Notes under the pieces: model-generated
What the model saw: the letters and a program-made list of their open reading frames with translations, nothing else
What the model was told of the DNA's origin: nothing
Database searches by the model: none
Position numbers and translations under genes: made by a program
Source: Deltaproteobacteria bacterium
Lineage (GTDB): Bacteria; Desulfobacterota; Desulfobaccia; Desulfobaccales; 0-14-0-80-60-11
Reading direction: 5' to 3'
DNA length: 64,000 nucleotides
Assembly: GCA_003599195.1 (NCBI GenBank)
Contig: QZIZ01000019.1
Location: 14,188 to 78,187 of the forward strand
Part shown: positions 1 to 18,097 of the stretch, piece after piece
How the letters are laid out: each line of letters opens with the position of its first letter
Position numbering within the stretch: the stretch's first letter is position 1

Positions 1-531
1 AAGAGCGAAACCGGCATCCACCGCCTGGTGCGCATCTCTCCTTTCGACGCCTCCGGCCGCCGCCACACCTCTTTTGCCGCAGTGCAGGTGCTGCCGGAAG
101 TGGACGACCGCATCGACGTCGACATCCAGGAAAAGGACCTGCGCATCGACACCTTCCGGGCCAGCGGCCCGGGGGGCCAGCACGTGAACAAGACCAGCTC
201 CGCGGTGCGTCTGACCCATATTCCCACGGGCATTGTGGTCTCATCCCAATCCGAGCGTTCCCAGCACCGCAACAAGGAACTGGCCATGAAGGTGCTCCGG
301 GCCCGGCTCTACAACCTGGAACAACGCAAGCGGGAGGAAAAAAAGCAGGAACTCCAGGAGTCCCAGAAAGAGATCGCCTGGGGCAGCCAGATCCGCTCCT
401 ATACCCTGCAGCCCTACCGCCTGGTGAAAGACCACCGCACCAAGCACGAGGCCGGCAACGTGGACGCGGTCCTGGACGGCGACCTGGACGGTTTTGTGGA
501 GGCCTTCCTCCTCAATCCGGAAGGAAATTAA
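1..531 (+). CDS. prfB: Peptide chain release factor 2, C-terminal part (5' end outside window)
   Basis: SPF stop-recognition motif (RISPFD), GGQ motif ([11 protein letters not shown]), WGSQIRSY. Confidence 0.95.
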
Positions 532-1343: not shown

Positions 1344-1387
1344 TTGACAGGCCTCTTACGTATAATTATATAAATAGATATTGATAT
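1344..1387 (+). promoter_or_regulatory. Sigma70 promoter of the trxB-selenoprotein operon with overlapping palindromic operator (probable ArsR site)
   Basis: TTGACA 1344-1349, 17 nt, TATATA 1367-1372; imperfect palindrome ATATaAATA-GA-TATTgATAT 1368-1387. Confidence 0.6.
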
Positions 1388-1416
1388 ATTAATTTTCTGA
1401 AGACCAGGAGTTTTCC

Positions 1417-2376
1417 GTGTCTGAAAATGTTTTCGATCTAATCATCGTGGGCGCCGGTCCCGGAGGGCTGACCGCCGGGATTTACGCCATGCGCGCGGCG
1501 CTGAAGACCGTCCTCATTGAAAAAGGGATTGCCGGCGGCCAGATCAACCTCACGGAATCGGTGGAGAACTATCCCGGATTCGAGAACATCAGCGGCTTCG
1601 ACCTGTCTCAGAAGTTCATGCAGCACGCCCAATCTTACGGTCTGGAAGTGGTCCAGCAGGAAGTGGCGGCCGTGGAGCCGGGGCTGGAGTTCCATGCCGT
1701 GCGTCTGGCCAACGGCGAGTTGCTCAAGACCCATGCCGTTATTTTGGCTACGGGCGGCAGCCCCAGGAAGCTCGGCGTCCCCGGGGAACTGGAATACTAC
1801 GGCAAGGGAGTCTCTTACTGCGCCACCTGCGACGGCTTTTTCTTCCGGGGTAAAAACGTCATCGTGGTGGGCGGCGGCGACAGCGCCCTGGAAGAGGCCC
1901 TTTATCTCGCCAAAATCACCTGCCGGGTTTACCTGGCCCACCGCCGGGACGCGTTCCGGGGCAGCCGGATTTTGCAGGAACGGGTCCTGGCTGATGAGAA
2001 AATCGAGGTCTTGTGGAACACCGTCGTCACCGAAGTGAAGGCCGATGGCCAGGGCGTCCACGCGGTGGCGCTTAAGGATACAAAGACCGGGGCCGCCCGG
2101 GAACTGGCCGTGGACGGCGTGTTCGTCTTCATCGGCTTCAGTCCCAATAACCGGTTGGTCCCCGCCGGAACCAGGATGGACCATGACGGCTACGTGATGG
2201 CCGACGAGAAGTGCGAGACCAATATCCCGGGAATCTTTGTCATCGGCGACTTGAGGCAAAAATACGCCAAACAGATCGTCACTGCGGCCGCGGACGGCTG
2301 CACCGCGGCCCTGGCCGCGGCTTTATGCGTGGAAATGAAAAAAGCGGGGCAGGCCTGCCCGGCCCACCGGGGATAA
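1417..2376 (+). CDS. trxB: Thioredoxin-disulfide reductase
   Basis: GAGPGG FAD motif, CATCDG active site, GGGDSA NADPH motif; GTG start after AGGAG. Confidence 0.95.
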   Translation: MSENVFDLIIVGAGPGGLTAGIYAMRAALKTVLIEKGIAGGQINLTESVENYPGFENISGFDLSQKFMQHAQSYGLEVVQQEVAAVEPGLEFHAVRLANGELLKTHAVILATGGSPRKLGVPGELEYYGKGVSYCATCDGFFFRGKNVIVVGGGDSALEEALYLAKITCRVYLAHRRDAFRGSRILQERVLADEKIEVLWNTVVTEVKADGQGVHAVALKDTKTGAARELAVDGVFVFIGFSPNNRLVPAGTRMDHDGYVMADEKCETNIPGIFVIGDLRQKYAKQIVTAAADGCTAALAAALCVEMKKAGQACPAHRG

Positions 2377-2442
2377 GACGGGCGGATGAAGACCCCGGCG
2401 CCGGAAAAGACCGCCCATACCACAGAGAACCGCGAGGAAGCA

Positions 2443-2751
2443 ATGCCCCTGGAAGATTATCTGCAGACGGTTGCTTTTGTAGCCAAGAGCATGTCGGATG
2501 AAAACCGGCTGCGGATTCTCTTGTGCGTCAATAACGGCAAGAAATCCGTCAACAGCATTGTGGAAGAACTGAGCCTGTCCCAGCCCCTGGTTTCCCATCA
2601 CCTGAAAGAACTGCGGCGTTCGCTGCTGGTGAAGGTGGAGCGCAGCGGCCCCTTCGTGTACTACGAGATTGCGGACCCCAGAATTCCCAAGATTCTGAAA
2701 GATTTGAAAGACCTGGCCACGGATTTGCTGGCCAGGAGAAAGACTTTTTAA
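2443..2751 (+). CDS. ArsR/SmtB family transcriptional regulator
   Basis: SDENRLRIL...LSQPLVSHHLKELR HTH; GAGGA RBS before ATG 2443 (alternative start 2386). Confidence 0.9.
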   Translation: MPLEDYLQTVAFVAKSMSDENRLRILLCVNNGKKSVNSIVEELSLSQPLVSHHLKELRRSLLVKVERSGPFVYYEIADPRIPKILKDLKDLATDLLARRKTF

Positions 2752-2772
2752 CCGGAGGAGGTGATTCATCAT

Positions 2773-3225
2773 ATGGCGGGAATTACCAAGATACTGGAGG
2801 GCATGGCCCCATCCCAAGCTTTGTCCGAAATCGGCGGGGCGCTGAAAAAAATTCTGCCTCTGGTCACCGAGGAAGATCGGCTGAACTTTGTCGTGCAGTT
2901 GCTCGGCGGCGCCGGCGACGACAAGGTGGCCAGTATGGTGCACCTCTGACTGGCGGAATGCCTGGACGAAGGTGTCGATCCAACGCATATGTGTCAAAAG
3001 CTGGTGGACCGGGTGTCGCAGTCCAAGCAGCTCATGGCCGTGGCCGATCCGGAGTTGCTGGCGCTGTTCGAGGACTGGCTGGATGAGCTGGAGGATGAAG
3101 TGATCGCCCTGGCCCGGGAGAAAGGGGGCCTCACCCCCGAAAACCTGGCCGCTAAATTCGGCCTCTCCCGGCGAGGGGCCACCTTTCTGATTACGAAATT
3201 AAAGAGAGAAGGAAAACTGTCTTAG
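2773..3225 (+). CDS. tsoA: Selenoprotein with LULAEC motif (TsoA-like), Sec at TGA 2947-2949, C-terminal HTH-like segment
   Basis: ORFs 2761-2949 and 2989-3225 are in one frame joined across TGA (H-L-U-L-A-E-C); downstream hairpin; family name recalled from NCBIfam, needs checking. Confidence 0.85.
2958..2988 (+). promoter_or_regulatory. Candidate bacterial SECIS element
   Basis: ATGC-c-TGGA-CGA-[AGGTG]-TCG-a-TCCA-ac-GCAT, loop GG at +22/23 from TGA. Confidence 0.7.
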
Positions 3226-3235
3226 AGGCATTAAG

Positions 3236-4978
3236 ATGATGACGGACAGAAAAAGAACCTTATTATTGGCTTTAATGGCTGCGGTCCTGACCCTGGGCGC
3301 GCTCTGGTATGTCCACCGCCCGGTGGCCGTCCAGGACGCCACCATGGAGGACGTCCGGGTCGAGGCCGCCAGGGGCGGCTATCGCCTGATTAATACCGAG
3401 GACTTGGCAAAGCTTTATCAACAGCCTCCCGCCAACCTGCTCATCGTGGACACCCGCCAGGATTGGGAGTACCGCAGCGGCCATATCAAAGGCGCGGTGG
3501 ATTTCCCCCTGGAACCCGGCTGGTGGTCCCGGTGGCGCTCCCAGGGCCGCCTGAAGGCCTTGCTGGGGCCGGACAAAGACCGGCTGGTAGTCTTTTACTG
3601 AGCGGGCCTGGCCTGAGTCCGCAGCGACTCCGCGGCCCGGGTGGCCGTCGACCTTGGCTATAAAAATGTTTATCGGGACCCCCTGGGTTTCCCGGAATGG
3701 CAGAAAGCCGGCCTGCCCGTGGCCGGCGATCCCTTGGGACTGTGTGATTACGCGCCGGAGGCTTACTCTCCCGGTGTCCTCTCCGGTTGGGCTTTAGTCT
3801 GGACCATGCTGGGCATCTTCTTCGGCGGTATGGCCCTCAACCTTACTCCTTGCGTCTATCCCATCATCCCCATCACCGTTTCGTACTTCGGCGGGCGCAG
3901 CGGCCAGGGCCGGGGACGCCTGGTGATCCACGGCCTCCTGTACGTGGCGGGCCTGGCCGTCACCAACTCCGCGTTGGGGGTAATTGCGGCTTTCACCGGC
4001 GGCCTCATGGGAGCCATACTGCAAAATCCCCTGGTGCTGCTGACGGTGGCCGCAGTCCTGGTCATCTTTGCCACCAGTCTTTTCGGGTTCTGGGAACTGC
4101 GCCTCCCCGGCAGCCTGACCCAGGCCGCGTCCAGGTCCTATGCCGGCTATGGCGGCAGCCTGTTCATGGGTCTGACTTTGGGAGTGGTGGCCGCGCCCTG
4201 CATCGGCCCGTTTGTGTTAGGACTCTTGACCTGGGTGGCCTCCATAGGCTCGCCCTGGCTGGGTTTCCTGGTGTTTTTCACATTGAGCCTGGGACTGGGA
4301 CTGCCCCTGTTTTTCCTGGCCATCTTCTCCGGCAGCCTGGAGAAACTGCCCCGGTCCGGGGAGTGGATGCTTTGGGTGCGGAAACTCATGGGCTGGGTGC
4401 TCATCGGCATGGCCGCCTATTTTCTGCGGCCGCTGCTTTCCGAGACCCTGAGCGTATTCCTGCTGGCCGCGGCGGCCCTGGCCGCGGCGGTGCACCTGGG
4501 ATGGCTGGACCGCACCACCGCGGCTTTCCGGAGTTTCCGGTGGCTCAAGACCGTCACCGCCTTGGCGGGAGTGGTAGCCGCCACCTTTCTGGTGGGGTCC
4601 TGGGCCTTCCGTGGTCCGGGGGTAACCTGGCAGCCTTATTCGGACCAGCTCTTAAGGACGGCGAAACATGAGAAAAAACCGGTAATTATCGACTTTTACG
4701 CCACCTGGTGCAGCCCCTGCCGGGAGCTGGAGGAAATCACCTTCCACCACCCGGAGGTGGTGAAACAGGCTGCCGCGGATTTCCTTGCGGTCAAGGTGGA
4801 CCTGACCCAGAAAGGCAACCCCTTGCACACCCGGCTGTTGGAGCAATACGGGGTCAAAGGAGTGCCCACTGTGGTTTTCCTGGATGGTCAGGGCAATGAA
4901 TGCCGGAACCTGCGCCTGGTGGATTATCTGCCGCCGGAGCAGTTCCTCTCCCGTATGGCCAAGGCCATGAAGAAATAA
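3236..4978 (+). CDS. tsoB: Rhodanese-DsbD(beta)-thioredoxin fusion selenoprotein (TsoB-like), Sec at TGA 3599-3601 and 3614-3616
   Basis: Reads VVFY-U-AGLA-U-VRSDSAARVAVDLGYKNV...GFPEWQKAGLP, completing the rhodanese fold; then LTPCVYP/APCIGP (DsbD transmembrane Cys pair) and WCSPC; 580 aa. Confidence 0.9.
3625..3650 (+). promoter_or_regulatory. Candidate SECIS downstream of the U-x4-U motif
   Basis: GCGGCC-[CGGGT]-GGCCGT stem-loop, loop at about +22 to +26 from the second TGA. Confidence 0.6.
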
Positions 4979-4997
4979 AAGCGGTTGGAGAATTGAT

Positions 4998-5279
4998 ATG
5001 CTTAAAATTAAAGCCTTGATGAACGATCCCTGCGGCCTGACCTGAAAGCGCCTCCACGAGATCATGCCCAGGTTGGGCAAGAAATACGAGTTGGAAGTGG
5101 AGGAGATTTCCCGGTCCAGGGAGGAATACCAGAGCGAAGCCTACCGGGCCGCGGGCCTGCCCCCGGCCCCCGCGGTGCTGGTGGAAGATGAAGTTGCAGG
5201 CCAGGGACCCGGCATTTCCGAAGAAGGCGTGGAAGCGGTGATCCGCCGGCATTTGGGACTGCCGCCCCTGAAGTCCTAA
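4998..5279 (+). CDS. tsoC: Thioredoxin-fold selenoprotein (TsoC-like paralog 1), NDPCGLTU motif, Sec16 at TGA 5043-5045
   Basis: GGAG RBS + ATG 4998, in frame with ORF 5064-5279; hairpin TGCCCA-GGT-TGGGCA 5065-5079; APA cis-Pro-like motif. Confidence 0.85.
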
Positions 5280-5311
5280 AAATCGCACAATCCAAAAATT
5301 GGAGGACAAGA

Positions 5312-5629
5312 ATGCTCAAAGTCAGATGCTTTTACAACGAGCCTAACGGCAAACCCTGAAAGCATTTCCAGGAAATGATGCCCAGGTTGGGCCAAAAATA
5401 TCCCATCGACATCAAAATTACTTCCAAACCCATTGCCGAATACCAAACGGATGAATATTTTGAGTTAGACCTCCCCGCGGCCCCGGCCATCATGGTGGGC
5501 GACGAGATCGTGGTGGAAGGCACGGATGTAGCCGAACTCAAATTGGAAACCGTCATCTGCCGGCATCTGGGGCTGCCCGAGCCGGAGCCGCCCAAGAAAG
5601 GCTTCCTGGGGCGGCTGTTTGGCAAATAG
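5312..5629 (+). CDS. tsoC: Thioredoxin-fold selenoprotein (TsoC-like paralog 2), NEPNGKPU motif, Sec16 at TGA 5357-5359
   Basis: GGAGG RBS + ATG 5312, in frame with ORF 5375-5629; TGA aligned with paralog; hairpin GCCCA-GGT-TGGGC 5380-5392. Confidence 0.88.
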
Positions 5630-5719
5630 ACCCGCAGGGGGTGAAGGCAGATTCGCCCCCCCAGGTTTGGAAAAGATAAGGCGCAGCGTCAGCAACCCGC
5701 TGCCGCCCAAGAGGTAGCC

Positions 5720-6418
5720 ATGCAGACGGAAAGATTCCGGCGGGGGGCCTTGATCAAGGCCGTGATCCTCATTCTGTTCGTGGCCGCCGCGGTGGTGACG
5801 GTCCGCACTCCCGCGGTCAAGGAGGCGCTGACCGCAGAAAAGCTGGGCGCCATGCTGGCGGCCGCGGGCGCCTGGGCCCCTGTGGCCTTTATTGTGTTTT
5901 ACGCCGTAGGGGTCTGCCTGTTCATCCCCGGGACTTTGCTCACCGCGCTGGGGGCCGCCATCTTCGGGGCCTATTGGGGGTTTGTCTACGTCTGGGTGGC
6001 CGCCATGCTGGGGGCCGCAGGGGCCTTTCTCATCGGCAGGTACCTGGGGCGGGAGTTCGCGGCTGCCCTCATCGGCGAGCGGCTGAAGAAGTATGACGAC
6101 GCCATCGAGCGCAACGGCTTCGCCACCGTGCTCTACTTACGGTTGGTTTATTTCCCCTTTACCCCCATGAACTTCGGCATGGGGCTGACCAAAGTGCGCT
6201 TTAAGGATTACCTCTGGGGCACGGGGCTGGGGATCTTGGCGGGCACCTTCATCTTCACCTTCTTTGTGGGCACCGTCAAGGAGGTCTGGGCCAGCGGCCA
6301 ATGGGCCAACCTCCTCACCTGGCAAGTATTTTTTTCCCTGGGACTCTTTGTTTTTTCCCTCTTTATTCCCAAGATCATCGATAAGCTGAAGGTCTGGAAA
6401 GGGATCAAGCCTGTTTAA
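5720..6418 (+). CDS. TVP38/TMEM64 (DedA superfamily) membrane protein
   Basis: PGTLLTALGAAIFG, F-x-IGRYLGR, LRLVYFPF...GLT motifs; hydrophobic. Confidence 0.9.
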   Translation: MQTERFRRGALIKAVILILFVAAAVVTVRTPAVKEALTAEKLGAMLAAAGAWAPVAFIVFYAVGVCLFIPGTLLTALGAAIFGAYWGFVYVWVAAMLGAAGAFLIGRYLGREFAAALIGERLKKYDDAIERNGFATVLYLRLVYFPFTPMNFGMGLTKVRFKDYLWGTGLGILAGTFIFTFFVGTVKEVWASGQWANLLTWQVFFSLGLFVFSLFIPKIIDKLKVWKGIKPV

Positions 6419-7041
6419 ACCTTTTCTCCGGCGATAACCACGAAAACCCCTTGGCCATGGCCGCTCTTCACCGGTTCCGGCGCCGTAATCGCCGCCGGGT
6501 CTTGAAAAATGGTCTGGCAAGTCTGAATGTTCAGATAATTCAGCTCAACCAGCCATTTCAGGACCCGGCCCACCGGCTGGAACCTCGCCTGGCGGTAAAA
6601 TTTACTCTTTTCCCGGTTGGCCTCATATAATTTCCCCAAAGGGCTCTCCGGATCGATCATGCCGATGATCAGCCGTCCTTGGGGTTTAAGGACCCGGGTC
6701 GCCTCTTCAAGAGCGCGGCCAGGGTCTTTCAGGAAGCACAGGACGGTGACCATCAGAATAAAATCAAAAGATTCATCTTTGAAAGGAAGTTCTTCCCCGT
6801 AAGCCTCGTGGACCTCGATCCCCCGTTTTCCGGCGATCTCGGCCATGGCCCGGGCGGGCTCCACCCCCACTTCGATCCCCAGGGCCGCGGCAAACCTGCC
6901 GGTCCCCACCCCGATTTCCAGCCCCCGGCCTGCTTGCGGCATAAAGGCTTTGATGGCCGCCAGTTCGGAGCGGAAGGCGATCTCATGGCGGACAAACCAA
7001 TCATCGTATTCCTGGGCCGCTTCTTCAAAAACATCGGTCAT
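6415..7041 (-). CDS. Class I SAM-dependent methyltransferase
   Basis: GLEIGVGTGRFA motif I, LPFKDESFD, RVLKPQG; start moved to 7041 (GGAGG upstream); 4-nt TTAA convergent overlap with TVP38 gene. Confidence 0.9.
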   Translation of the reverse strand: MTDVFEEAAQEYDDWFVRHEIAFRSELAAIKAFMPQAGRGLEIGVGTGRFAAALGIEVGVEPARAMAEIAGKRGIEVHEAYGEELPFKDESFDFILMVTVLCFLKDPGRALEEATRVLKPQGRLIIGMIDPESPLGKLYEANREKSKFYRQARFQPVGRVLKWLVELNYLNIQTCQTIFQDPAAITAPEPVKSGHGQGVFVVIAGEKV

Positions 7042-7073
7042 CGGAAAAACTCTCTCCTCCCTTATGAGAGCGG

Positions 7074-7580
7074 TTACTGTGACATTATAACTCCGGTAAC
7101 CAGCAATACCGCCAGCCCCAGAACTAAATTTACTTTTACCAGATTTAATGACAACTTTTGCAGCCCGGCGACCCGGGAGGATAAAGCAGGCGTCCCCTCG
7201 GCCTGGGCGGCCAATCTCCCGATTTTGGGAGCCAATAACCATCCCCGGTAAAAATGGATAACCACCATCACGAGTACCAGGAGGTGTTTCACGCCCATTA
7301 CGGGGGTCCAATGATTATAAAATTCCAGGGGATTGGCCATATCTTTGCCGTAATGGCCGAGGATCGGACCGGTGATAATCAATACTACGATACTGGCGTT
7401 AACCATGGGGGTCAAACGCCTGGTTATCTCTTTCATCAGTTTGCCGGTCAAAGGCGGTGATTCCAAAGAGGTCCTGGCCCCGGGCAGTATCACCAAAAGG
7501 ACCATAAAGATGCCGCCGATCCAGACCACGGTGGCCAATAAATGGAGAAAGTGGCTTAAACTCAAAATCAGCAAATTCAT
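7074..7580 (-). CDS. CopD/DUF4149-like four-helix membrane protein
   Basis: SHFLHLLATVVWIGG motif, 4 hydrophobic segments. Confidence 0.75.
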   Translation of the reverse strand: MNLLILSLSHFLHLLATVVWIGGIFMVLLVILPGARTSLESPPLTGKLMKEITRRLTPMVNASIVVLIITGPILGHYGKDMANPLEFYNHWTPVMGVKHLLVLVMVVIHFYRGWLLAPKIGRLAAQAEGTPALSSRVAGLQKLSLNLVKVNLVLGLAVLLVTGVIMSQ

Positions 7581-7628
7581 CGCGGGTCTCCCATACAAGG
7601 CGTCATAAGTAATTGCACATCCTGAATC

Positions 7629-7690
7629 CCTGCGCTCTCTGCTCTCTGCGTTAAAAAGATTCACCGCAGAGACGCAGAGGACGCAGAGAA
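7629..7690. repeat. Inverted CGCAGAGA-type short-repeat element
   Basis: CTCTGCTCTCTGCG ... CGCAGAGACGCAGAGGACGCAGAGA. Confidence 0.7.
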
Positions 7691-7742
7691 TAATTATGTC
7701 ACTCCGGATAAAAAAGATCCCGATTCAATTTCTCGGAACCAC

Positions 7743-7771
7743 CCGGAGGCAGAGGGTTTCCCTGCCTCCGG
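7743..7771. terminator. Strong hairpin downstream of the CGCGC peptide gene
   Basis: CCGGAGGCAG-N9-CTGCCTCCGG; no clear U tract. Confidence 0.5.
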
Positions 7772-7786
7772 CCCTGTTGGTTAAGC

Positions 7787-7900
7787 CTACTTCCCGGCCT
7801 TGGGGTCTTTAACCTCCGGCTTGCCTTTGGCGGCTTCAGCCTCGGGCTTCGCCGGCTTCGCCAAGCCGCAGCCACAACCGCACTTTTTCTGGTCTGCCAT
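7787..7900 (-). CDS. 37-aa Cys-rich peptide MADQKKCGCGCGLAKPAKPEAEAAKGKPEVKDPKAGK (absent from ORF track)
   Basis: Strong SD AAAGGAGGTGA before ATG 7900; TAG 7787-7789; follows the dsrE-like gene. Confidence 0.75.
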   Translation of the reverse strand: MADQKKCGCGCGLAKPAKPEAEAAKGKPEVKDPKAGK

Positions 7901-7940
7901 CTGGATCACCTCCTTTGCTTGTAATTTCGTTTCCGGGCTC

Positions 7941-8315
7941 TCAGAAAGTCATTACCGCGTCAGACTCAACGACCATGCTATTCAGGGTCGGAGCACAGAC
8001 TATTTTGGCCCCCTCTATGAAACCTTTTTCGAGATCGATTCCCAGCATGCGCGCGCTCTCCTCGCATACCAGAAACGAGACGCCCGCCTCCGCAGCCTGC
8101 ACGATCGCATCTTTCAGACATCCGAAAGGCTGCGGCAACGTAATCTTCTCGGCCTGCCCTTTTTGGAGAACCGTCACCCCCTTTATTCCAAAAAAAATGG
8201 AAGCGTCCATATCCATTGCCTTGGCCGTGGCGCCAAGGATAAAAGGAGCGTAGGTGCGCTCCGGGGTTTCCACACCGCTGGTTTGAATGTAGAGGACTTT
8301 CTTTCTTGCACTCAT
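7941..8315 (-). CDS. DsrE/DsrF-like sulfur-relay/peroxiredoxin family protein
   Basis: IFFGIKGVTVL, AGVSFLVCEES, DAVMTF C-terminus. Confidence 0.85.
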   Translation of the reverse strand: MSARKKVLYIQTSGVETPERTYAPFILGATAKAMDMDASIFFGIKGVTVLQKGQAEKITLPQPFGCLKDAIVQAAEAGVSFLVCEESARMLGIDLEKGFIEGAKIVCAPTLNSMVVESDAVMTF

Positions 8316-8371
8316 TTGGATTTAATCTCCTCCCTTCAGTCAGTCTCTGGGTTTGTTTAATTCGCAAGTTT

Positions 8372-8557
8372 TTACTTTCCCTGGAGTTTCCCCAGGTGCT
8401 CCTCCACCCCGGCCAGTTCTTTTTTCAGTTGTTCCCGGTAGTTCTCCAGGCACTCCAGTTCCTCGGGGGCTGAAAAGAACTTGCGGAAAGAAAGGCCGCA
8501 ACCGCAGTCGCACCCGCATACCGGTCCCGGATGCTGCGTTACTCTGGGCGTACACAT
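8372..8557 (-). CDS. Small Cys-rich coiled-coil protein (DUF5320-like)
   Basis: AAAGGAGGTG SD; CGCDCGCG followed by ELECLENYREQLKKELAGVEEHL. Confidence 0.75.
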   Translation of the reverse strand: MCTPRVTQHPGPVCGCDCGCGLSFRKFFSAPEELECLENYREQLKKELAGVEEHLGKLQGK

Positions 8558-8584
8558 ACTGATTCACCTCCTTTCTGGTATGGT

Positions 8585-8605
8585 AATTAATTAATTACTT
8601 AAATA
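8585..8605. promoter_or_regulatory. Probable ArsR operator, copy 2
   Basis: AATTAATTAATTACTTAAATA, 18/21 identical to 9059-9079. Confidence 0.6.
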
Positions 8606-8632
8606 GTAAAGCAAAAAAAATTCCAGATTTTT

Positions 8633-9037
8633 TTATTTGGATTTTTCCTTGATCCGCTGCCGCACCGCGTTCAGCTCCTCCTGGAGGTCCTTCTCATATT
8701 GTTTCAGGGCCTCCACGTCCGAACTCTCGAATTCCTGTTCCCGCCATTTCATGGTGCCCCGGCAGCCGCAACTGCAGACTTCCGTCAACTGGCGCCGGTA
8801 TTTCTCCAGGGCCTCCTCGTTAATGGAGTAGGGAATCCAGTACCCCTGCCTTTCGCTCCGCACCAGCCCGGCCTGCCGCAGGATCTTGAGATGCTGGGAG
8901 GCCGCGGCTGCGGTGATCCCCAACTGCCGGGCGATCTCCTTGGCCCCCAGGGGCCCCTGGGCCTTCATCAGATCAAGTATCCTGACCCGGGTCTCCACGG
9001 CCAGGACCTTGAACATTTCGGAGACTTCCAATTCCAT
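8633..9037 (-). CDS. ArsR family regulator with C-terminal CSCGC and coiled-coil extension
   Basis: FKVLAVETRVRIL...AASQHLKILRQAGLV HTH. Confidence 0.9.
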   Translation of the reverse strand: MELEVSEMFKVLAVETRVRILDLMKAQGPLGAKEIARQLGITAAAASQHLKILRQAGLVRSERQGYWIPYSINEEALEKYRRQLTEVCSCGCRGTMKWREQEFESSDVEALKQYEKDLQEELNAVRQRIKEKSK

Positions 9038-9058
9038 TTGTCGAGGTCCACATTTAGC

Positions 9059-9106
9059 AATTAAGTAGTTGCTTAAATAATTAAGCTTCTAAGGTTCGCT
9101 TGTCAA
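9059..9106 (-). promoter_or_regulatory. arsR promoter with palindromic operator, copy 1
   Basis: TTGACA on minus strand 9106-9101; palindrome TTAAGTA-GT-TGCTTAA 9061-9076. Confidence 0.6.
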
Positions 9107-9153
9107 GGTTTTTTTAGCGATTACCCAAAAAAAATTTTTAAGGGTAAATTCTG

Positions 9154-10368
9154 CTAATGCAGCAATAGAAAAAGAATTGGGGGTACCCGCGTGGGCTTGG
9201 GTTTGACGGGGGTTCTGTCGGCCCGGCCGGTATGCCGGGGGTCGTGGCGAAACATGGGCCAGGGGGTGGCCGCCGGGCCGGGGGAAGCGCTCTCCACGGC
9301 ATGGAGAATGCCATCCTGGGAAGCCACGTAAACCGTGCCGTCGGGGCCGATGACCGGCGAGGATTCGATGGCGTCCGCGACCTCAAAAGCCCATTTCAGG
9401 CTGCCGTCTTCCGGGTTGACCGCATAAAGAAATCCACCACTGCCCCCCACATAGATAATGCCGTCCGCGCCCACGGCCGGCGAGGAATAGATCGGCCCAC
9501 CTTCAGAAAGGGGAACCCCCCAATTCAGGATGCCGTTAGGATAGACCGCCAATAAATAACCCAGGTCTGTGCCCACATAGATGGTCCCGTACGCGTCGAT
9601 GGCCGGCGAGGAGCGGATGGGGAAAAAACTCTCAAAAAGGACCCATTTCCGGCTGCCATCCGGATTGACGGCGTAAAGCTTGGTGTCGCCCGAGCCTAGA
9701 TAGACGGTGCCGTCCGTCCCCACGGCCGGGGAAGAGTCGAGGGGACCCTCGGTGGTGAAGTACCACTTTATGTTGCCGTTCGAATCTATGGCGTATAGCT
9801 TGCCAATGATGGCGGTGGTGGCATCGATGGCGCCCACGTAAACGGTGCCGTCCAGGTCTAGGGCCGGAGAGGAACTCACCCAATTCCCCAGGGCAACGCG
9901 CCACTTCTCATTGCCGTCGGCATCGACCGCGTAGAGGTTGCCGTCATCGGACCCCACGTAGATGGTCCCGCCCGGGCCGATGGCCGGTGAGGACATGATT
10001 GCGGCTCCGGTCTCAAAAGCCCATTTCGGGCTGCCGTCAGCCGGGTTAAGGGCATAGAGCTTCCCGCCAACAGAACCCGCGTAAACGGTCCCATCTTCCC
10101 CCAGGGCCGGGGAAGAGTACATGAACATATCCTCCATGGCGGTATCAAAAACCCACTTCTGAGTGCCGTCCGGATTGACCGCGTGAAAGACCCCGAACAG
10201 GGTTCCGATATACAGCGTGCCGTCCGGGGCCAGGGCGGGGGAGGTGGTGACGATATCGTCGGTGGCATAGGCCCATTTGGCGTCGCCGGGGGCGGCCCGA
10301 GCCGCGCCGGTCAGAGCCAGGGCCAAAACGACGCACTGGAGGGATAAAACAAGGGCTTTCTTCCCCAT
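9154..10368 (-). CDS. Secreted PQQ-like (BamB-type) beta-propeller repeat protein
   Basis: Signal peptide; eight SSPA-x-G-x-DGT-x-YVG...KW type repeats; WPMFRHDPRHTG; hydrophobic C-terminal tail. Confidence 0.9.
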   Translation of the reverse strand: MGKKALVLSLQCVVLALALTGAARAAPGDAKWAYATDDIVTTSPALAPDGTLYIGTLFGVFHAVNPDGTQKWVFDTAMEDMFMYSSPALGEDGTVYAGSVGGKLYALNPADGSPKWAFETGAAIMSSPAIGPGGTIYVGSDDGNLYAVDADGNEKWRVALGNWVSSSPALDLDGTVYVGAIDATTAIIGKLYAIDSNGNIKWYFTTEGPLDSSPAVGTDGTVYLGSGDTKLYAVNPDGSRKWVLFESFFPIRSSPAIDAYGTIYVGTDLGYLLAVYPNGILNWGVPLSEGGPIYSSPAVGADGIIYVGGSGGFLYAVNPEDGSLKWAFEVADAIESSPVIGPDGTVYVASQDGILHAVESASPGPAATPWPMFRHDPRHTGRADRTPVKPKPTRVPPILFLLLH

Positions 10369-10557
10369 GAGCCGCTCCTCTCAAAGGCCTATGAGGACAC
10401 CAGTAAAACGAACCATTACTGCGGCAGGAAGTGGTTAGATGATAACACAAGATCCTGTAAAAATCAATTATTCGGGGTCTGCCGTACCTCCCCCGGAGCC
10501 GTCAAGCCCCGCATGGTGGTGCGAACCATGGGCCAAACCCGCCCGGCCCGGGCGGGA

Positions 10558-11412
10558 TTATTGCTTAGGCGCTCACGCTCCGCCCGGAGCGCACTCCACC
10601 ACTTTAGGCTCCTCCACTTGGACCGCCTGGGTGGCGATCATCGCCTGCGCCCGCGCATCCACCAGTTTTTCCCCGTAAAACATGGCCCCTTCGGTGTAGG
10701 GAGAGGTCTTGAAGCCGGTGTAGGCCCTCAGGCCCGCCCGGTGGAAGCCCGCTTTCAGCAGCAGCGCCAGGAAGTCCCTTCCCGGCAGGGCGCCGCCGAT
10801 TCACTGGTACCAGTTTTCAATCTTCCCCGCCTTATCCGGGGGGAGTTCCGCCACCAGCACCATGTCCGCCAACATGAGGCGGCCCCCGGGCTTCAGCACC
10901 CGGTGGGCCTCTAACAAAGCCTTTTCCTTGTCCAGGGTAAGGTTAAAGACGCCGTTGGAGATGACTGCGTCGAACTCGTTATCCGGGAAAGGCAGGGATT
11001 CGGCCTCCGCCAACTGAAAAGTGACATTTGTTAGGCCCAGGACAGAGAGGTTGGCTTTAGCCTTGTCTATCATGGCCTGGGTCACGTCAACGCCCGCCAC
11101 CCGGCCCTCCGGCCCCGCCATCTTCGCCGCCAGAAGCGAGTCCAGCCCCGCGCCGCAGCCGATGTCCAGGACTGCGTCCCCGGGGTGGATAGGCCCCAGG
11201 CTGAAGGGGTTGCCCACCCCGCAGAAGGAGTCGATAAGGGCGGCCGGAAAATCCCGGAGCAGGTCCAGGGGGTAACCCTGCTGCTTCAGCCCTTCCAGGC
11301 CGGTGGGGTACCTGAAGCATGAAGCCGCGCCCGCGGCCGCCACCTGGGAGTATTTGCTCTTGATGCTCTCCCGGATCAGGGTGATATCTTTTTCGGTCAG
11401 ATTAGATTCCAT
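10558..11412 (-). CDS. ArsM-like SAM methyltransferase selenoprotein; Sec204 at TGA 10803-10801; second TGA 10575-10573 is a stop or a second Sec
   Basis: SFCGVGNP, VLDIGCGAG, ISNGVFNL; read-through gives NWYQ-U-IGGALPGRDFLALLLKAGF, matching ArsM W-x-x-C-I-x-GAL; hairpin GCCGGGAAG-GGA-CTTCCTGGC with loop at +24. Confidence 0.85.
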
Positions 11413-11437
11413 AATATTTACCTAAAGTCGCGCCTTT

Positions 11438-11465
11438 CTTTGCGCCTTGGCGTCTTTGCGTGAGA
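11438..11465. repeat. CTTTGCGC/CTTGGCGT 8-mer repeat element (single arm)
   Basis: CTTTGCGCCTTGGCGTCTTTGCGTGAGA, same family as 25887-26008, 52435 and 53199. Confidence 0.75.
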
Positions 11466-11474
11466 ACTATCTTT

Positions 11475-12041
11475 TCACAGTTCCTTCCCGATGGAGAAGG
11501 CCTTGCCCAGATATTGGCCGATCCCGTGGTAGGTGCGGATTTCCGGGCCGAAGACAATGGGCTTCACCTTCTCGATGTCCGCCATGCCCTTCTCCCCCAG
11601 CACGCTGTCATCGGCCTTGACGTCCAGGACTTCGCCGATGAACTGGGTGTGCAGGCCGATTTCGATGGTGTGGATTACTTTGCATTCCAGGACCAGGGGA
11701 AATTCCTGCACATAGGGCGCGTCCACCAGGCCGCTTTTCACCGGCGTCAGCCCGGCCGCGGTGAACTTGTTCCCGGCCTTGCCGGAGGCGATGCCGCAAT
11801 AATCGGCTTCCTTGACGTAAGCTTCCGGGGGGATGCTGACGGTGAAGGCCTTTTTCAGCATCAGGTTGCCGTAAGTGTAGGTGGCTTTCCGCAGCGAGAC
11901 CCCGACGCAGGGCGGCTGGGAGCAGACGATCCCGGCCCAGGCCGCGGTCATGATATTGGGTGTGCCCGCCGCGTCATAAGTCCCCACCAGCCACACCGGG
12001 GTGGGGAAGGCCAGGGTCTTGGGACCCAGGGATTTTTTCAT
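11475..12041 (-). CDS. Flavoredoxin / flavin reductase family protein
   Basis: PTPVWLVGTYD...NIMTAAW, ADYCGIASG, LECKV, HTQFIGE. Confidence 0.9.
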   Translation of the reverse strand: MKKSLGPKTLAFPTPVWLVGTYDAAGTPNIMTAAWAGIVCSQPPCVGVSLRKATYTYGNLMLKKAFTVSIPPEAYVKEADYCGIASGKAGNKFTAAGLTPVKSGLVDAPYVQEFPLVLECKVIHTIEIGLHTQFIGEVLDVKADDSVLGEKGMADIEKVKPIVFGPEIRTYHGIGQYLGKAFSIGKEL

Positions 12042-12055
12042 GAACAGCTCCTCCT

Positions 12056-12116
12056 TCAGGGGTCAGGGGGTCAGGGGTCAGGGGTCAGTAATCAGTAATC
12101 AGTGGTCAGTGGTCAG
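12056..12116. repeat. Heptamer tandem repeats (TCAGGGG/TCAGTAA/TCAGTGG)
   Basis: Direct reading of about 8 units. Confidence 0.8.
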
Positions 12117-12245
12117 AATAGCAGTTATTTTCCAGATAATCATTTATTACAGGGCCTTTAGATAAAAAGGTAAGGCGGACGAGGGAAAATGCAACCTGGC
12201 GTCTTGAGTATATCTGCGGCGGGGTTTTTGTGCTATTTATAAAAT

Positions 12246-13430
12246 ATGGACCCTGAAATGGATAAGCGTTTACAGCTATTGCAACAATTGGCCTCCCGTC
12301 TGGCGCAGCGCCGGGCGGACCTGGTGGCCGCGGCCGGGGAGGATACCGGCGCGCCCAGCCGCATTGCCGGGATCGAAGTGGACCTGGCCGTGGAGCACCT
12401 CCGAACCATGGAAGTGGAGGTCCCCTATATCCAGGGCAAATCCCCTTACGGCACGGTGGCCGCCATCTTCCCCTACGACGCGGCGCCGGTGATGCTGGCC
12501 CGGGTGGGCGGAGCCGCGATTTTGGGGGGGAACCGCTTCCGGTTCAGTTTTTCCTCCGTCACTCCCTTGACGGCCCGGGTCATCTCCGAGGTGGTGGCCC
12601 CTTTTCCGGAATTTGAGGCGGTGGCGAGCCTGGACAACCGCGCCTTCGGGGAGCAGTGCGTCCGGGACCCATCCGTGCGGGTGCTCTTCATCTCCGGGGG
12701 CGGGGAGGTGGGCCAGGTTTACGCAGGCCAGGCCCAGGCCTTCGACAAGCTCTTTTTCGCGGGTCCCAGCGGCCTGCCCCCGGCCATCCTGTTCAAGGAC
12801 GCGCCCCTGGAGAAGGCCGTGCCTTTTGTGATTAAAAGGGCCTTCATCAACGGCGGGCAGTACTGCACCACCCTGAAGCGGGCTTACATCCACCGGGAAA
12901 TTTTTGCCGCAGCTAAAAAGCTGATCCTGGAACAGATGCAGGAAATCCGGGTGGGTAACCCTCAAGACCCCTTGACCTGGATCGGCCCCATCAAGGTGGC
13001 CCGCACCCGGGCCTTGCTGGAGCGGGCCCTGGCCGCGCTGGGGGAGCCCGAATTCCTGGTCCCCTGCCAACGCAACGGGGAATGGCAGGGTCCCTTCCTG
13101 GTGGAAACTACGGAGCCGCCGGATGTGGAATTATTCGGGCCCTTTCTGGCCCTGGTCCCGGTGGACAGCAATGAGGAAGCCGTCACCCGGGTTTTGGCCA
13201 GCCGCTACCCCTTCCTGGTGAGCTGGTTCGGCACTGCGCCGCCGGGGGCCAAAGAGGCTTTTGTCAAAACCTTCGGCATGGTCTACGACAACCCGGATTT
13301 CCTCTTCACCCCCATGCGCCTCCCCTTCGGCGGCAGAGGGGCCAGCGGCTGGATTCTGGAGAAGACCGGCGGCGAACTGGTGAAAAGGGACGGAGCGTTT
13401 ATCTACAGCGCGGAGTTGGTGCGCGGCTAA
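12246..13430 (+). CDS. Divergent aldehyde dehydrogenase-family protein
   Basis: AFINGGQYCTT catalytic Cys region, ELFGPFL, LPFGGRGASG. Confidence 0.8.
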   Translation: MDPEMDKRLQLLQQLASRLAQRRADLVAAAGEDTGAPSRIAGIEVDLAVEHLRTMEVEVPYIQGKSPYGTVAAIFPYDAAPVMLARVGGAAILGGNRFRFSFSSVTPLTARVISEVVAPFPEFEAVASLDNRAFGEQCVRDPSVRVLFISGGGEVGQVYAGQAQAFDKLFFAGPSGLPPAILFKDAPLEKAVPFVIKRAFINGGQYCTTLKRAYIHREIFAAAKKLILEQMQEIRVGNPQDPLTWIGPIKVARTRALLERALAALGEPEFLVPCQRNGEWQGPFLVETTEPPDVELFGPFLALVPVDSNEEAVTRVLASRYPFLVSWFGTAPPGAKEAFVKTFGMVYDNPDFLFTPMRLPFGGRGASGWILEKTGGELVKRDGAFIYSAELVRG

Positions 13431-13431
13431 G

Positions 13432-13551: not shown

Positions 13552-13559
13552 GCAAAATC

Positions 13560-14971: not shown

Positions 14972-15039
14972 ACACCCTCCAAAGAACGGTTTACGGTCTC
15001 CGGTTTTCGATAAAAAAGCCGGAAAGCAGCATGGTTGGG

Positions 15040-18081: not shown

Positions 18082-18097
18082 ACGCCACCCGCAGCAA

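What the first reader, a model, noticed from the sequence alone, without database searches (positions are those of the whole stretch)
1344..6418. Hidden four-selenoprotein operon encoding a candidate NADPH-to-periplasm redox relay
Seen: one promoter/operator, then trxB, arsR, four genes split by five in-frame TGAs (2947, 3599, 3614, 5043, 5357) and a TVP38 gene, all tightly spaced. Reading TGA as Sec joins the ORF-track fragments and extends them to RBS-supported starts. Established: TrxB reduces thioredoxin-fold proteins, and DsbD passes electrons from its beta domain through gamma to an N-terminal domain. Inference: NADPH to TrxB to the two Sec thioredoxin-like proteins to DsbD-beta to WCSPC to a periplasmic Sec-rhodanese, induced by a metalloid or sulfane sulfur via ArsR. 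From memory these resemble computationally named TsoA/B/C families; I know of no characterised function.
Basis: partly seen in the sequence, partly recalled or inferred. Interest (0 to 1): 0.92.

Follow-up and report, generated by a model that had tools for sequence, protein, structure and literature searches.

The report
Tso selenoprotein operon with own TrxB
This is a real but already catalogued "three selenoprotein operon" (Tso) of a sulfate-reducer relative: four genes read five UGA codons as selenocysteine, and they probably carry reducing power across the membrane to a selenium-bearing enzyme domain whose substrate is still unknown.

Summary
All five in-frame TGAs sit at the stated coordinates, and the seven genes are tightly spaced on one strand.

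The four split genes are members of published, computationally defined families. NCBIfam TsoA, TsoB, TsoC (two copies) and the regulator TsoR all score above their curated cut-offs. These families come from Haft & Tolstoy 2025, which I could not read.

Selenocysteine decoding is well supported:
- TGA is kept at every aligned site in 25/25 TsoA, 29/29 TsoB and 28/28 TsoC homologues.
- Hairpins follow each UGA, two of them with compensatory changes, and synonymous sites there are frozen.
- The genome has selB, a Sec-containing selD and RF2.
- selA and tRNA-Sec are missing from this 81%-complete MAG.

Details that appear in none of the text I could read:
- An 8-4-8 palindromic operator, exact at 1368-1387, places trxB under Tso control.
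- A distinct TrxB paralogue sits inside Tso operons in two different positions in 14 of 80 loci, with decayed remnants in others.
- TsoR has no conserved Cys.
- TsoR-TsoA pairs also front other cargo genes, some read here with in-frame TGA: ArsM-like, TsoX, SelD, a weakly SQR-like oxidoreductase.

The proposed NADPH-to-periplasm relay is plausible for TsoB. It is unproven for TrxB to TsoC to TsoB.

The parts
1344..1349 (+). -35-like TTGACA of the operon promoter
   Evidence: Read. A TTGACA stands at the same place, about 17-25 nt before the operator, upstream of tsoR in the homologous loci printed. No canonical -10 was called by the scan.
1368..1387 (.). Candidate TsoR operator, an 8-4-8 palindrome ATATAAAT-AGAT-ATTGATAT
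   Evidence: Exact match to the consensus ATAT[AC]AAT-N4-ATT[TG]ATAT that I derived from the upstream regions of tsoR homologues. It is the only hit with 2 or fewer mismatches in the window and the only 0-mismatch hit in the 3.92 Mb genome, which has 5 further hits with 2 mismatches. It is present (2 or fewer mismatches) in 20 of the 29 TsoB loci (by my reading, 23 of those 29 carry tsoR) and in 68 of 80 TsoA loci. Binding by TsoR is inferred.
1417..2376 (+). trxB, Tso-associated thioredoxin-disulfide reductase paralogue (CATC active site)
   Evidence: TIGR01292 scores 375.3 bits against a cut-off of 343.45. It is one of three TrxB genes in the genome. The in-genome paralogues are 51% identical, while Tso-linked TrxBs of other genomes are 66-84% identical.
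2386..2751 (+). tsoR, ArsR/SmtB-type regulator
   Evidence: NF045707 scores 164.1 bits against a cut-off of 115. No conserved Cys: C47 is present in 60 of 89 homologues.
2761..3225 (+). tsoA, LULAxC selenoprotein. Sec codon at 2947-2949 (U63 from the GTG at 2761; the start is more likely the ATG at 2773)
   Evidence: NF045695 scores 221.5 bits against a cut-off of 170. U63, C67 and C78 are invariant in 25 sequences. The AF2 model is all-helical with pLDDT 70.7. The C-terminal ~45 residues superpose on winged-HTH domains, but no Foldseek E-value is below 0.3.
2964..2981 (+). SECIS-like hairpin of tsoA, apical loop AGGUG 23-27 nt after the UGA
   Evidence: pair 20-33 is AU in 14, GC in 11 and GU in 1 of 26 sequences (compensatory). 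Synonymous sites in the stem are frozen.
3236..4978 (+). tsoB, rhodanese/DsbD-fusion selenoprotein. Sec codons at 3599-3601 (U122) and 3614-3616 (U127)
   Evidence: NF045694 scores 1014.2 bits against a cut-off of 805. Pfam domains: Rhodanese 55-157, DsbD_TM 189-400, thioredoxin-like 464-572. Invariant residues: U122, U127, C206, C322, C492, C495. Hydropathy shows an N-terminal helix 8-26 plus an 8-helix core.
3615..3630 (+). Hairpin 1 after UGA-1 of tsoB (GAGUC-CGCAGC-GACUC). Its stem includes the G and A of UGA-2
   Evidence: 4 of the 5 pairs are invariant in 30 sequences and the fifth is kept in 28 of 30. Third-codon positions in the stem (V128, D131) have zero entropy, while those in the loop vary. 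Its role as the SECIS for U122 is inferred from spacing (loop at +21 to +26).
3632..3648 (+). Hairpin 2 of tsoB (GCGGCC-CGGGU-GGCCGU), loop 24-28 nt after UGA-2
   Evidence: pair 36-48 is GC 21, AU 6, CG 3; pair 39-45 is CG 29, UA 1 (compensatory).
4998..5279 (+). tsoC-1, paralogue with NDPCGLTU (CxxxU) and no C-terminal tail. Sec codon at 5043-5045
   Evidence: NF045708 scores 112.9 bits against a cut-off of 45. This type was seen only in L047, L049, L052, L057 and L067, all of the window's own family f1.
5066..5078 (+). SECIS-like hairpin of tsoC-1 (GCCCA-GGU-UGGGC)
   Evidence: The single-sequence fold has z = -2.07.
5312..5629 (+). tsoC-2, canonical NEPxGxxU selenoprotein with a thioredoxin fold and a basic amphipathic tail. 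Sec codon at 5357-5359
   Evidence: NF045708 scores 147.9 bits against a cut-off of 45. The AF2 model has pLDDT 91.7. Foldseek top hits are thioredoxins: 7 hits at E <= 0.001, TM about 0.53.
5380..5392 (+). SECIS-like hairpin of tsoC-2 (GCCCA-GGU-UGGGC), loop 28-30 nt after the UGA
   Evidence: 5 pairs kept in 27-30 of 30 sequences, with no compensatory change. Third-codon positions of P24, R25 and L26 have zero entropy.
5720..6418 (+). VTT/TVP38 (DedA-superfamily) membrane protein, last gene of the operon
   Evidence: PF09335 scores 85 bits. A close homologue lies downstream of tsoC or tsoB in 15 of 29 TsoB loci, plus 2 weak matches, and in 30 of 80 TsoA loci.
6415..7041 (-). Class I SAM methyltransferase, convergent neighbour and possibly associated
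   Evidence: Matches in 9 of 29 Tso loci; close homologues (over 40% identity across most of the protein) in L045, L047, L052, L060 and L066. In L045 it lies on the operon strand between tsoC and VTT. Only weak matches to DVU_1556 and ArsM models.

Best explanation
The region is a Tso ('three selenoprotein operon') locus of an uncultured Desulfobaccales-like bacterium. Five UGA codons are decoded as selenocysteine in TsoA (U-x3-C plus a third Cys), TsoB (U-x4-U) and two TsoC copies.

The operon starts at a TTGACA-plus-palindrome control region that TsoR probably represses. A dedicated TrxB paralogue has been placed between that operator and tsoR.

Most likely mechanism, with my odds for each step:
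1. TsoB works like DsbD. Electrons cross the membrane through the C206/C322 pair of the 8-helix core to the periplasmic WCxPC thioredoxin domain. They then pass to the periplasmic rhodanese domain, which stands where DsbD-alpha stands. Its U122/U127 diselenol captures or reduces a soft chalcogen or metalloid species (about 0.7 for the path; substrate unknown).
2. On the cytoplasmic side the electrons come from NADPH through the Tso-linked TrxB, and where that gene is absent through a housekeeping reductase (about 0.5).
3. The thioredoxin-fold TsoC, held at the membrane by its basic amphipathic tail, is the carrier that meets TsoB (about 0.35).
4. TsoA, with its U63/C67/C78 triad and helix-turn-helix-like tail, is the effector-binding partner of the Cys-less TsoR, or a chaperone for the same ligand (about 0.3).

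The identity as Tso selenoproteins is shown. The steps above are inferred.
For: Family membership: all four families score above their curated cut-offs.

Sec decoding:
- TGA is kept at the aligned site in 25/25 TsoA, 29/29 TsoB (both sites) and 28/28 TsoC copies from genomes of about ten families of the phylum. Protein similarity continues past the TGA in every case.
- Hairpins sit 21-30 nt after each UGA, with compensatory pairs in tsoA and in tsoB hairpin 2.
- Among codons of conserved residues, third positions are invariant in 9 of 33 within 17 codons after a UGA, against 1 of 245 elsewhere.
- A Cys paralogue (FYCGFVKCTRS) lies beside a Sec paralogue (FYUAGFAUVRS) on contig C91.
- The genome has selB at 363 bits.
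- Its selD carries a TGA at the GUxxK site.
- RF2 is at the window start.

Relay:
- Domain order and hydropathy.
- U122, U127, C206, C322, C492 and C495 are invariant.
- TsoC has a thioredoxin fold, pLDDT 91.7.

trxB:
- The exact operator lies upstream of it.
- 14 of 80 TsoA loci hold a full-length trxB on the operon strand, in two different positions: before tsoR in 9 and after tsoC in 5.
- Internally deleted remnants lie between operator and tsoR in L049, L053, L086 and L135.
- The Tso-linked copies form a distinct orthologue group.

TsoR/TsoA:
- They are adjacent in 79 of 80 loci.
- TsoR lacks a conserved Cys.
- TsoR-TsoA pairs without tsoB are followed by ArsM-type methyltransferase genes, TsoX, SelD or an oxidoreductase with a weak SQR-like match.
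Against: - selA gave no match and no tRNA-Sec was found. The MAG is 81% complete and also lacks tRNAs for Asn, Ile, Trp and Tyr, so this is weak evidence.
- No Cys-form orthologue of TsoA, TsoC or full-length TsoB was seen, so the classical Cys/Sec pairing test is met only for the rhodanese domain.
- Single-sequence folds after the UGAs are not significant for three of four sites (z = -0.57, -0.91 and 0.03). The tsoC hairpin shows no compensatory change.
- TsoC of the universal type has one conserved redox residue only, which does not fit a two-electron thioredoxin-type donor.
- trxB is absent from most loci, including the same-genus genome (L052).
- Topology rests on a crude hydropathy script.
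- The TsoA model is of low confidence around the Sec motif.
- There are no expression or protein data.
Confidence: 0.6

Rival explanations
1. Metalloid handling. The Sec and Cys sites are ligand-binding sites for a soft metalloid such as As(III), Sb(III) or Hg(II), not only electron carriers. TsoA (U/C/C triad) is a selenium-based chaperone or sensor. The periplasmic diselenol of TsoB sequesters or reduces the metalloid. The neighbouring methyltransferase and VTT protein modify and move it. This overlaps with the best explanation and differs mainly in what the Sec residues do.
For: - TsoR is an ArsR/SmtB-family regulator.
- TsoA has three invariant chalcogen residues, U63, C67 and C78, the number that As(III) sites use (established knowledge for ArsR, ArsD and ArsM).
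- TsoR-TsoA pairs are directly followed by ArsM-type methyltransferase genes, read with one in-frame TGA, in L149 and L153. An ArsM-like gene lies about 3.4 kb downstream in L132.
- The window's minus-strand neighbours are a methyltransferase, a CopD-like protein, Cys-rich peptides and a second ArsR with a CSCGC tail.
- That block recurs beside the Tso locus L047, except for the DsrE-like gene.
Against: - TsoR has none of the conserved Cys or His metal sites of ArsR/SmtB sensors.
- No ars, mer or efflux genes lie within the operon.
- The window's methyltransferase has only two Cys and matches ArsM models only weakly.
- No binding data exist.
Confidence: 0.3
2. Chalcogen trafficking. The system takes up or mobilises sulfur or selenium in zero-valent or polysulfide/polyselenide form. 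The periplasmic rhodanese carries a persulfide or perselenide that is released reductively through the DsbD path. TsoC and TsoA pass the chalcogen on in the cytoplasm, for example towards SelD.
For: - The rhodanese fold is that of sulfane-sulfur carriers (Pfam PF00581).
- Recalled, not checked here: rhodanese can carry selenium to SelD in vitro (Ogasawara, Lacourciere & Stadtman 2001), and a DedA protein was linked to selenite uptake (Ledgham et al. 2005).
- A TsoR-TsoA pair is followed about 1 kb downstream by selD and a membrane-protein gene in L118. Others are followed by DsrE-like genes (named from their sequence; no NCBIfam hit) or by an oxidoreductase with a weak SQR-like match, 89 bits against a cut-off of 525.
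- A DsrE-like gene lies at window 7941-8315.
Against: - A selenium-supply path that itself needs five Sec residues is circular.
- The active-site loop U-x4-U-x-R is longer than the usual rhodanese loop (read).
- No sulfur-oxidation or reduction genes lie inside the operon.
- The SelD linkage was seen in one locus only.
Confidence: 0.2
3. General envelope redox repair. TsoB is simply a DsbD/ScsB-type reductase variant that keeps periplasmic proteins reduced under oxidative or copper stress. Sec gives faster kinetics, and the other genes are accessory.
For: TsoB matches DsbD over residues 187-577 (NF001419, 250.9 bits). It has a thioredoxin-like C-terminal domain. A CopD-like gene lies nearby.
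Against: - The score is below the DsbD cut-off of 330.
- The alpha domain is replaced by a rhodanese.
- The genomes also carry ordinary DsbD/CcdA genes without TGA (many sub-cut-off rows).
- The tight link with TsoR, TsoA and TsoC and with other cargo genes read with in-frame TGA argues for a specialised chemistry.
Confidence: 0.12
4. The TGAs are true stops. The genes are split or decaying, or the reading frames are chance.
For: selA and tRNA-Sec were not found in the assembly. Gene callers would split these ORFs.
Against: - The TGA is kept in all 82 homologous gene copies examined, with conserved coding sequence on both sides.
- RNA-level constraint follows each UGA.
- selB and a Sec-type selD are present.
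- The curated selenoprotein models are matched end to end.
Confidence: 0.03

Closest known systems
Tso (three selenoprotein operon) families TsoR/TsoA/TsoB/TsoC of NCBIfam (NF045707, NF045695, NF045694, NF045708). Haft & Tolstoy 2025, mSystems 10:e0141724, as listed in the review PMC13188914.
   Same: Same four families, motifs (LULAxC, UxxxxU, NEPxGxxU) and gene order. All scores are above the curated cut-offs. The review's table and operon section describe the same system.
   Different: This locus adds trxB between the operator and tsoR, and a second TsoC paralogue with CxxxU. I could not read the primary paper. I therefore cannot say whether it already describes trxB, the operator, the VTT gene or the TsoR-TsoA module. 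No function is given in the text I could read.
DsbD (E. coli-type thiol:disulfide interchange protein; alpha, beta and gamma domains)
   Same: An 8-helix membrane core with one Cys in each of two helices, and a C-terminal periplasmic thioredoxin-like domain with CxxC. Both outer domains are on the same side. It probably works alike as a transmembrane electron relay.
   Different: The N-terminal immunoglobulin-like alpha domain is replaced by a rhodanese domain with two Sec. The score, 250.9 bits, is below the DsbD cut-off of 330. The cytoplasmic donor is unknown.
Rhodanese / periplasmic sulfurtransferases (PspE, GlpE; Sud recalled from memory)
   Same: Rhodanese fold, with the catalytic residue directly after the beta strand (..VVFYU).
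   Different: Sec stands in place of Cys. A second Sec lies five residues on, and the loop before the Arg is longer. The domain is fused to its own reductase. A Cys version, CxxxxC, exists as a stand-alone paralogue on contig C91.
Thioredoxin / small thioredoxin-fold redox proteins
   Same: TsoC has the beta-alpha-beta-alpha-beta-beta-alpha fold, with the reactive residue in the first turn of helix 1.
   Different: No CxxC and no Pfam thioredoxin match. It has a single Sec, or C-x3-U in the paralogue. Its C-terminal tail KKGFLGRLFGK resembles, from memory, the MinD membrane-targeting helix.
SAO (Sec-assisted organometallic) operon, Haft & Gwadz 2023
   Same: Another multi-selenoprotein operon found by the same approach (review text).
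   Different: Different protein families. No SAO model matched here.

Membership tests
TsoA (NF045695) | HMM score above the curated cut-off, and the LULAxC motif with Sec | tested here: met
   221.5 bits against 170, aligned over the whole model. The sequence reads HLULAEC, with U encoded by the TGA at 2947.
TsoB (NF045694) | HMM score above the cut-off, and a rhodanese/DsbD fusion with UxxxxU | tested here: met
   1014.2 bits against 805. The motif reads YUAGLAUVRS.
TsoC (NF045708) | HMM score above the cut-off, and the NEPxGxxU motif | tested here: met
   TsoC-2: 147.9 bits against 45, motif NEPNGKPU. TsoC-1: 112.9 bits, motif NDPCGLTU, so it departs at E to D and carries Cys at x.
TsoR (NF045707) | HMM score above the cut-off, and a position next to tsoA | tested here: met
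   164.1 bits against 115. Adjacent to tsoA here and in 79 of 80 loci.
Bacterial selenoprotein (any) | Sec machinery (selA, selB, selC, selD) in the genome | tested here: inconclusive
   selB and selD are present. selA and tRNA-Sec were not found in a MAG that is 81% complete.
Bacterial selenoprotein (any) | SECIS stem-loop shortly after the UGA | tested here: met
   Hairpins have loops 21-30 nt after each UGA. Compensatory pairs occur in tsoA and in tsoB hairpin 2. Synonymous sites are frozen. No dedicated bSECIS program was available.
Bacterial selenoprotein (any) | Cys in the place of Sec in homologues | tested here: inconclusive
   Met for the rhodanese domain, where a CxxxxC paralogue exists. 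No Cys forms of TsoA, TsoC or full-length TsoB were seen among the loci examined.
Bacterial selenoprotein (any) | Selenium shown in the protein | not testable with these tools
   Needs 75Se labelling or mass spectrometry.
DsbD (NF001419) | Score above the cut-off and an alpha domain with its Cys pair | tested here: not met
   250.9 bits against 330. The N-terminal domain is a rhodanese. TsoB works like DsbD but is not filed as DsbD.
DsbD (NF001419) | Beta-domain Cys pair and gamma-domain CxxC | tested here: met
   C206, C322, C492 and C495 are invariant in 29 sequences.
Thioredoxin (for TsoC) | Thioredoxin fold | tested here: met
   Foldseek: thioredoxins at E of 2.8e-4 and above, TM about 0.53, on a model of pLDDT 91.7.
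Thioredoxin (for TsoC) | CxxC active site and a sequence-profile match | tested here: not met
   No Pfam family matched at E <= 0.01. The motif is NGKPU or CGLTU.
ArsR/SmtB metal sensors (for TsoR) | Conserved metal- or persulfide-binding Cys/His site | tested here: not met
   The only Cys column is occupied by Cys in 60 of 89 homologues. No conserved C-terminal His is present. The HTH profile itself is matched (NF033788, 73 bits against 55).
Thioredoxin-disulfide reductase TrxB (TIGR01292) | Score above the cut-off and a CxxC redox centre | tested here: met
   375.3 bits against 343.45. CATC is present in the translation.

The most novel reading that the evidence does not exclude
Tso is a selenium-dependent pathway for one soft chalcogen or metalloid, built from two separable modules.

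(1) A sensor pair. The Cys-less repressor TsoR is controlled by the selenoprotein TsoA, whose U/C/C triad binds the effector. This would be the first Sec-based transcriptional sensor. The pair is reused in front of different cargo genes, several of them read with in-frame TGA (ArsM-like, TsoX, SelD).

(2) A DsbD-type relay whose terminal acceptor is a periplasmic diselenol rhodanese. It is fed by its own TrxB paralogue through a membrane-tethered mono-Sec thioredoxin-fold carrier.
Probability: 0.2. Interest if true: 0.75.

Novelty: new member of a known kind. Interest (0 to 1): 0.4.

Why it matters
The Tso system is one of very few operons that spend five selenocysteine codons on one pathway, and nobody has shown what it does.

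This locus gives concrete handles for experiments:
- a defined operator to test with TsoR and TsoA
- a dedicated TrxB paralogue that points to the electron source
- a DsbD-like protein whose end station is a two-Sec rhodanese
- cultured carriers in which to test all of this

If the relay or the Sec-based sensor is confirmed, it would extend what DsbD-type proteins and ArsR-type regulators are known to do. It would also help explain why Desulfobacterota keep such large selenoproteomes.

For genome annotation, it is a reminder that these genes are split by ordinary gene callers.

Tried and rejected
Literature
- The primary paper (Haft & Tolstoy 2025) is not held under its PMC id, DOI or PubMed id. 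What I know of it comes from passages of the review PMC13188914 and a reference-list entry in PMC13326102. Supplements were not opened.
- Searches for TsoA/TsoB/selenoprotein, for the paper's title and the motif words, and for Dbac_1935 to Dbac_1939 found no experimental work. One search found 0 papers. This covers the held library only.

Expression
- The look-up of sequencing runs listed no run, so no RNA holder is listed.

Binding and look-alike searches
- Complex prediction could not be run, so nothing can be said about a TsoC-TsoB contact.

Single-sequence folds and promoter scan
- Folds after the UGAs were mostly not better than shuffles. The case for SECIS rests on the alignments instead.
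- The sigma-70 scan did not call the + strand promoter, and no convincing terminator follows the VTT gene.

Other in-frame TGAs
- I looked for further selenoprotein genes at 9000-20000. The ORFs with one in-frame TGA were printed without a Sec in the error output. By eye they looked like ordinary genes (beta-propeller repeat, ThiL, RarA), but no family search was run on them.

Ideas considered and dropped
- An ArsC/Spx-like reading of the TsoC N-terminus. There was no profile match, and Foldseek ranks thioredoxins first.
- TGA reassignment to another residue. RF2 and SelB are present.

Correction
- A notebook entry says the operator is in 21 of 29 loci. Recounting one search gives 20.

Full report
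**What is there**

Reading the window confirms seven + strand genes between 1417 and 6418, with gaps of 9, 9, 10, 19, 32 and 90 nt. The five in-frame TGAs are at 2947, 3599, 3614, 5043 and 5357.

With TGA read as U, the split ORFs join into four proteins:
- a protein of 154 residues containing HLULAEC
- a protein of 580 residues with YUAGLAUVRS in a rhodanese domain, followed by a DsbD membrane core and a WCSPC thioredoxin domain
- two small proteins with U at residue 16

**Identity**

NCBIfam places all of them above the curated cut-offs:

| Family | Model | Bits | Cut-off |
|---|---|---|---|
| TsoA | NF045695 | 221.5 | 170 |
| TsoB | NF045694 | 1014.2 | 805 |
| TsoC-1 | NF045708 | 112.9 | 45 |
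| TsoC-2 | NF045708 | 147.9 | 45 |
| TsoR | NF045707 | 164.1 | 115 |
| TrxB | TIGR01292 | 375.3 | 343.45 |

The last gene has a VTT (TVP38/DedA) domain.

The review PMC13188914 (passages read) lists these families. [quoted passage not shown] That paper is not in the library. The text I could read gives it no function.

**Is UGA read as Sec?**

In a sample of 401 genomes of the phylum, 26 carry a TsoB match above the cut-off, and every listed row above the cut-off has two TGAs inside.

I fetched 29 such loci and compared them with the window's proteins. The aligned codon is TGA in 25 of 25 TsoA copies, in 29 of 29 TsoB copies at both sites, and in 28 of 28 TsoC copies. Similarity continues on both sides of the TGA.

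Alignments of the RNA after each UGA give hairpins whose loops lie 21-30 nt downstream:
- In tsoA one stem pair is AU in 14, GC in 11 and GU in 1 of 26 sequences.
- In tsoB there are two successive hairpins. The first contains the second UGA in its stem and is nearly invariant. The second has pairs GC 21/AU 6/CG 3 and CG 29/UA 1. Each is spaced correctly for one of the two UGAs. That each serves its own UGA is my inference.
- The tsoC hairpin (GCCCA-GGU-UGGGC) is conserved without compensatory change.

Among codons of amino acids that are at least 90% conserved, the third base is invariant in 9 of 33 codons within 17 codons after a UGA. Elsewhere in the three genes it is invariant in 1 of 245 (the sequences are related, so this is indicative only).

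The genome provides further support:
- a full-length selB
- a selD with a TGA at its known Sec/Cys site
- RF2 at the window start
- on contig C91, a Cys rhodanese (FYCGFVKCTRS) next to a Sec rhodanese (FYUAGFAUVRS)

Three points count against:
- selA and tRNA-Sec were not found. The MAG is 81% complete and also lacks four other tRNA specificities.
- No Cys forms of TsoA or TsoC were seen.
- Single-sequence folds are mostly not significant.

I put Sec decoding at about 0.93.

**Control region**

Upstream of tsoR in the homologous loci there is a TTGACA followed by an 8-4-8 palindrome. I summarised the palindrome as ATAT[AC]AAT-N4-ATT[TG]ATAT.

The window has an exact copy at 1368-1387, after the TTGACA at 1344-1349. 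It is the only copy with 2 or fewer mismatches in the window and the only exact one in the 3.92 Mb genome. The motif occurs in 20 of the 29 TsoB loci, of which 23 carry tsoR by my reading. It also occurs in 68 of 80 TsoA loci. The own genome gives 6 hits per 3.9 Mb, so chance would give well under one hit in those loci.

In the window the motif lies upstream of trxB, not of tsoR. trxB therefore sits inside the regulated unit. That TsoR binds the motif is inferred. The sigma-70 scan did not call the promoter.

**trxB**

The same-genus genome has the upstream neighbour gene, the operator and tsoR, but no trxB (L052). Among the 29 TsoB loci, only L047 has a trxB nearby.

A scan of one genome per species with the TsoA alignment found 389 stretches that encode relatives. 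The best 80 are nearly all named as Desulfobacterota or deltaproteobacterial lineages (two carry only broader Proteobacteria/Pseudomonadota names), with Desulfobaccales closest. Some of these 80 loci come from the same genomes as the 29.

Of the 80 loci, 14 hold a full-length trxB, always on the operon strand:
- 9 lie between the operator and tsoR, as in the window.
- 5 lie after tsoC and before VTT.

Internally deleted trxB remnants lie between operator and tsoR in L049, L053, L086 and L135.

The window's genome has three TrxB genes. The other two are 51% identical to this one, while Tso-linked TrxBs of other families are 66-84% identical. A distinct TrxB paralogue is therefore a recurrent, dispensable accessory of Tso.

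**TsoB**

Hydropathy gives an N-terminal helix preceded by basic residues, then the rhodanese domain. Next come eight helices, with a basic loop after the first, and finally the thioredoxin domain. This is the DsbD arrangement with the rhodanese in the place of DsbD-alpha.

U122, U127, C206, C322, C492 and C495 are invariant in 29 sequences. The DsbD model matches residues 187-577 but scores below its cut-off. I file TsoB as working like DsbD, not as a DsbD. What the diselenol does is unknown.

**TsoC**

The AF2 model (pLDDT 91.7) has a thioredoxin fold, and the best Foldseek matches are thioredoxins.

The universal type has only U16 as a conserved redox residue, with Asn at -4. It ends in KKGFLGRLFGK, which from memory resembles the MinD membrane-targeting helix.

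The CxxxU paralogue lacks the tail. It occurs only in the window's own family.

A mono-Sec protein cannot by itself deliver two electrons as thioredoxin does. The step TsoC to TsoB is therefore the weakest link.

**TsoA and TsoR**

TsoA has invariant U63, C67 and C78. Its model is helical and of modest confidence. Its C-terminal 45 residues superpose on winged-HTH domains without a significant overall match (Pfam HTH_24 E = 0.0025, below threshold).

TsoR has no conserved Cys or His site.

TsoR and TsoA are adjacent in 79 of 80 loci. Where no tsoB follows, the next genes are one of the following:
- ArsM-type methyltransferase genes (L149, L153)
- TsoX (L143)
- selD (L118)
- an oxidoreductase with a weak SQR-like match (L154)

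This suggests a sensor or chaperone pair that serves varied chalcogen or metalloid cargo. That reading is inference.

**Neighbours**

A VTT gene follows in 15 of 29 loci (plus 2 weak matches) and in 30 of 80 loci. The methyltransferase at 6415-7041 recurs beside Tso loci, and in L045 it lies inside the operon.

**Verdict**

The kind is known.

The locus is a new member with a documented variant, trxB under the Tso operator plus a second TsoC. The function remains open but is now testable. No earlier-findings look-up was possible.

Noticed in passing
window 6415-9037, minus strand: A block of metal- or sulfur-flavoured genes lies convergent to the operon. It holds a SAM methyltransferase, a CopD-like membrane protein (7074-7664), a 40-aa peptide with CGCGCG (7787-7909), a DsrE-like protein (7941-8315), a 61-aa Cys-rich peptide (8372-8557) and a second ArsR with a CSCGC tail (8633-9037). 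All of these except the DsrE-like gene recur together beside the Tso locus L047.
   Followed up: partly
L073 (own genome contig C91) 1679-3513: A DoxX-like membrane protein is followed by a secreted Cys rhodanese with CxxxxC. After that comes a membrane-anchored stand-alone Sec rhodanese with UxxxxU, 55% identical to the TsoB N-terminal domain. Similar stand-alone Sec rhodaneses appear in four other genomes of the family.
   Followed up: partly
L049 6656-6773 and L053 3858-4006; also L086, L135: Internally deleted trxB remnants, with the N-terminal ~20 residues joined to the C-terminal ~35, sit between the Tso operator and tsoR. They show repeated loss of the Tso-linked trxB.
   Followed up: yes
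L118 7516-9425: A TsoR-TsoA pair is followed, after about 1 kb, by a Sec-type selD (346.6 bits) and a membrane-protein gene instead of tsoB.
   Followed up: partly
L071, L104, L119 (tsoB): In these loci the TsoB match is broken into overlapping pieces in different frames. This suggests frameshifts or assembly errors in some copies.
   Followed up: no
L046 and L047: Two TsoR-TsoA pairs occur in one locus. In L047 the second pair has its own operator and an intact trxB upstream of that operator.
   Followed up: partly
window 1-531: The 3' part of prfB (release factor 2) is here. It shows that UGA is an ordinary stop in this organism.
   Followed up: yes
window 2761 vs 2773: The TsoA model aligns from residue 8, and homologues begin MAGI... 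The ATG at 2773 is therefore a more likely start than the GTG at 2761, which stands directly after the GGAGGAG ribosome-binding site.
   Followed up: partly
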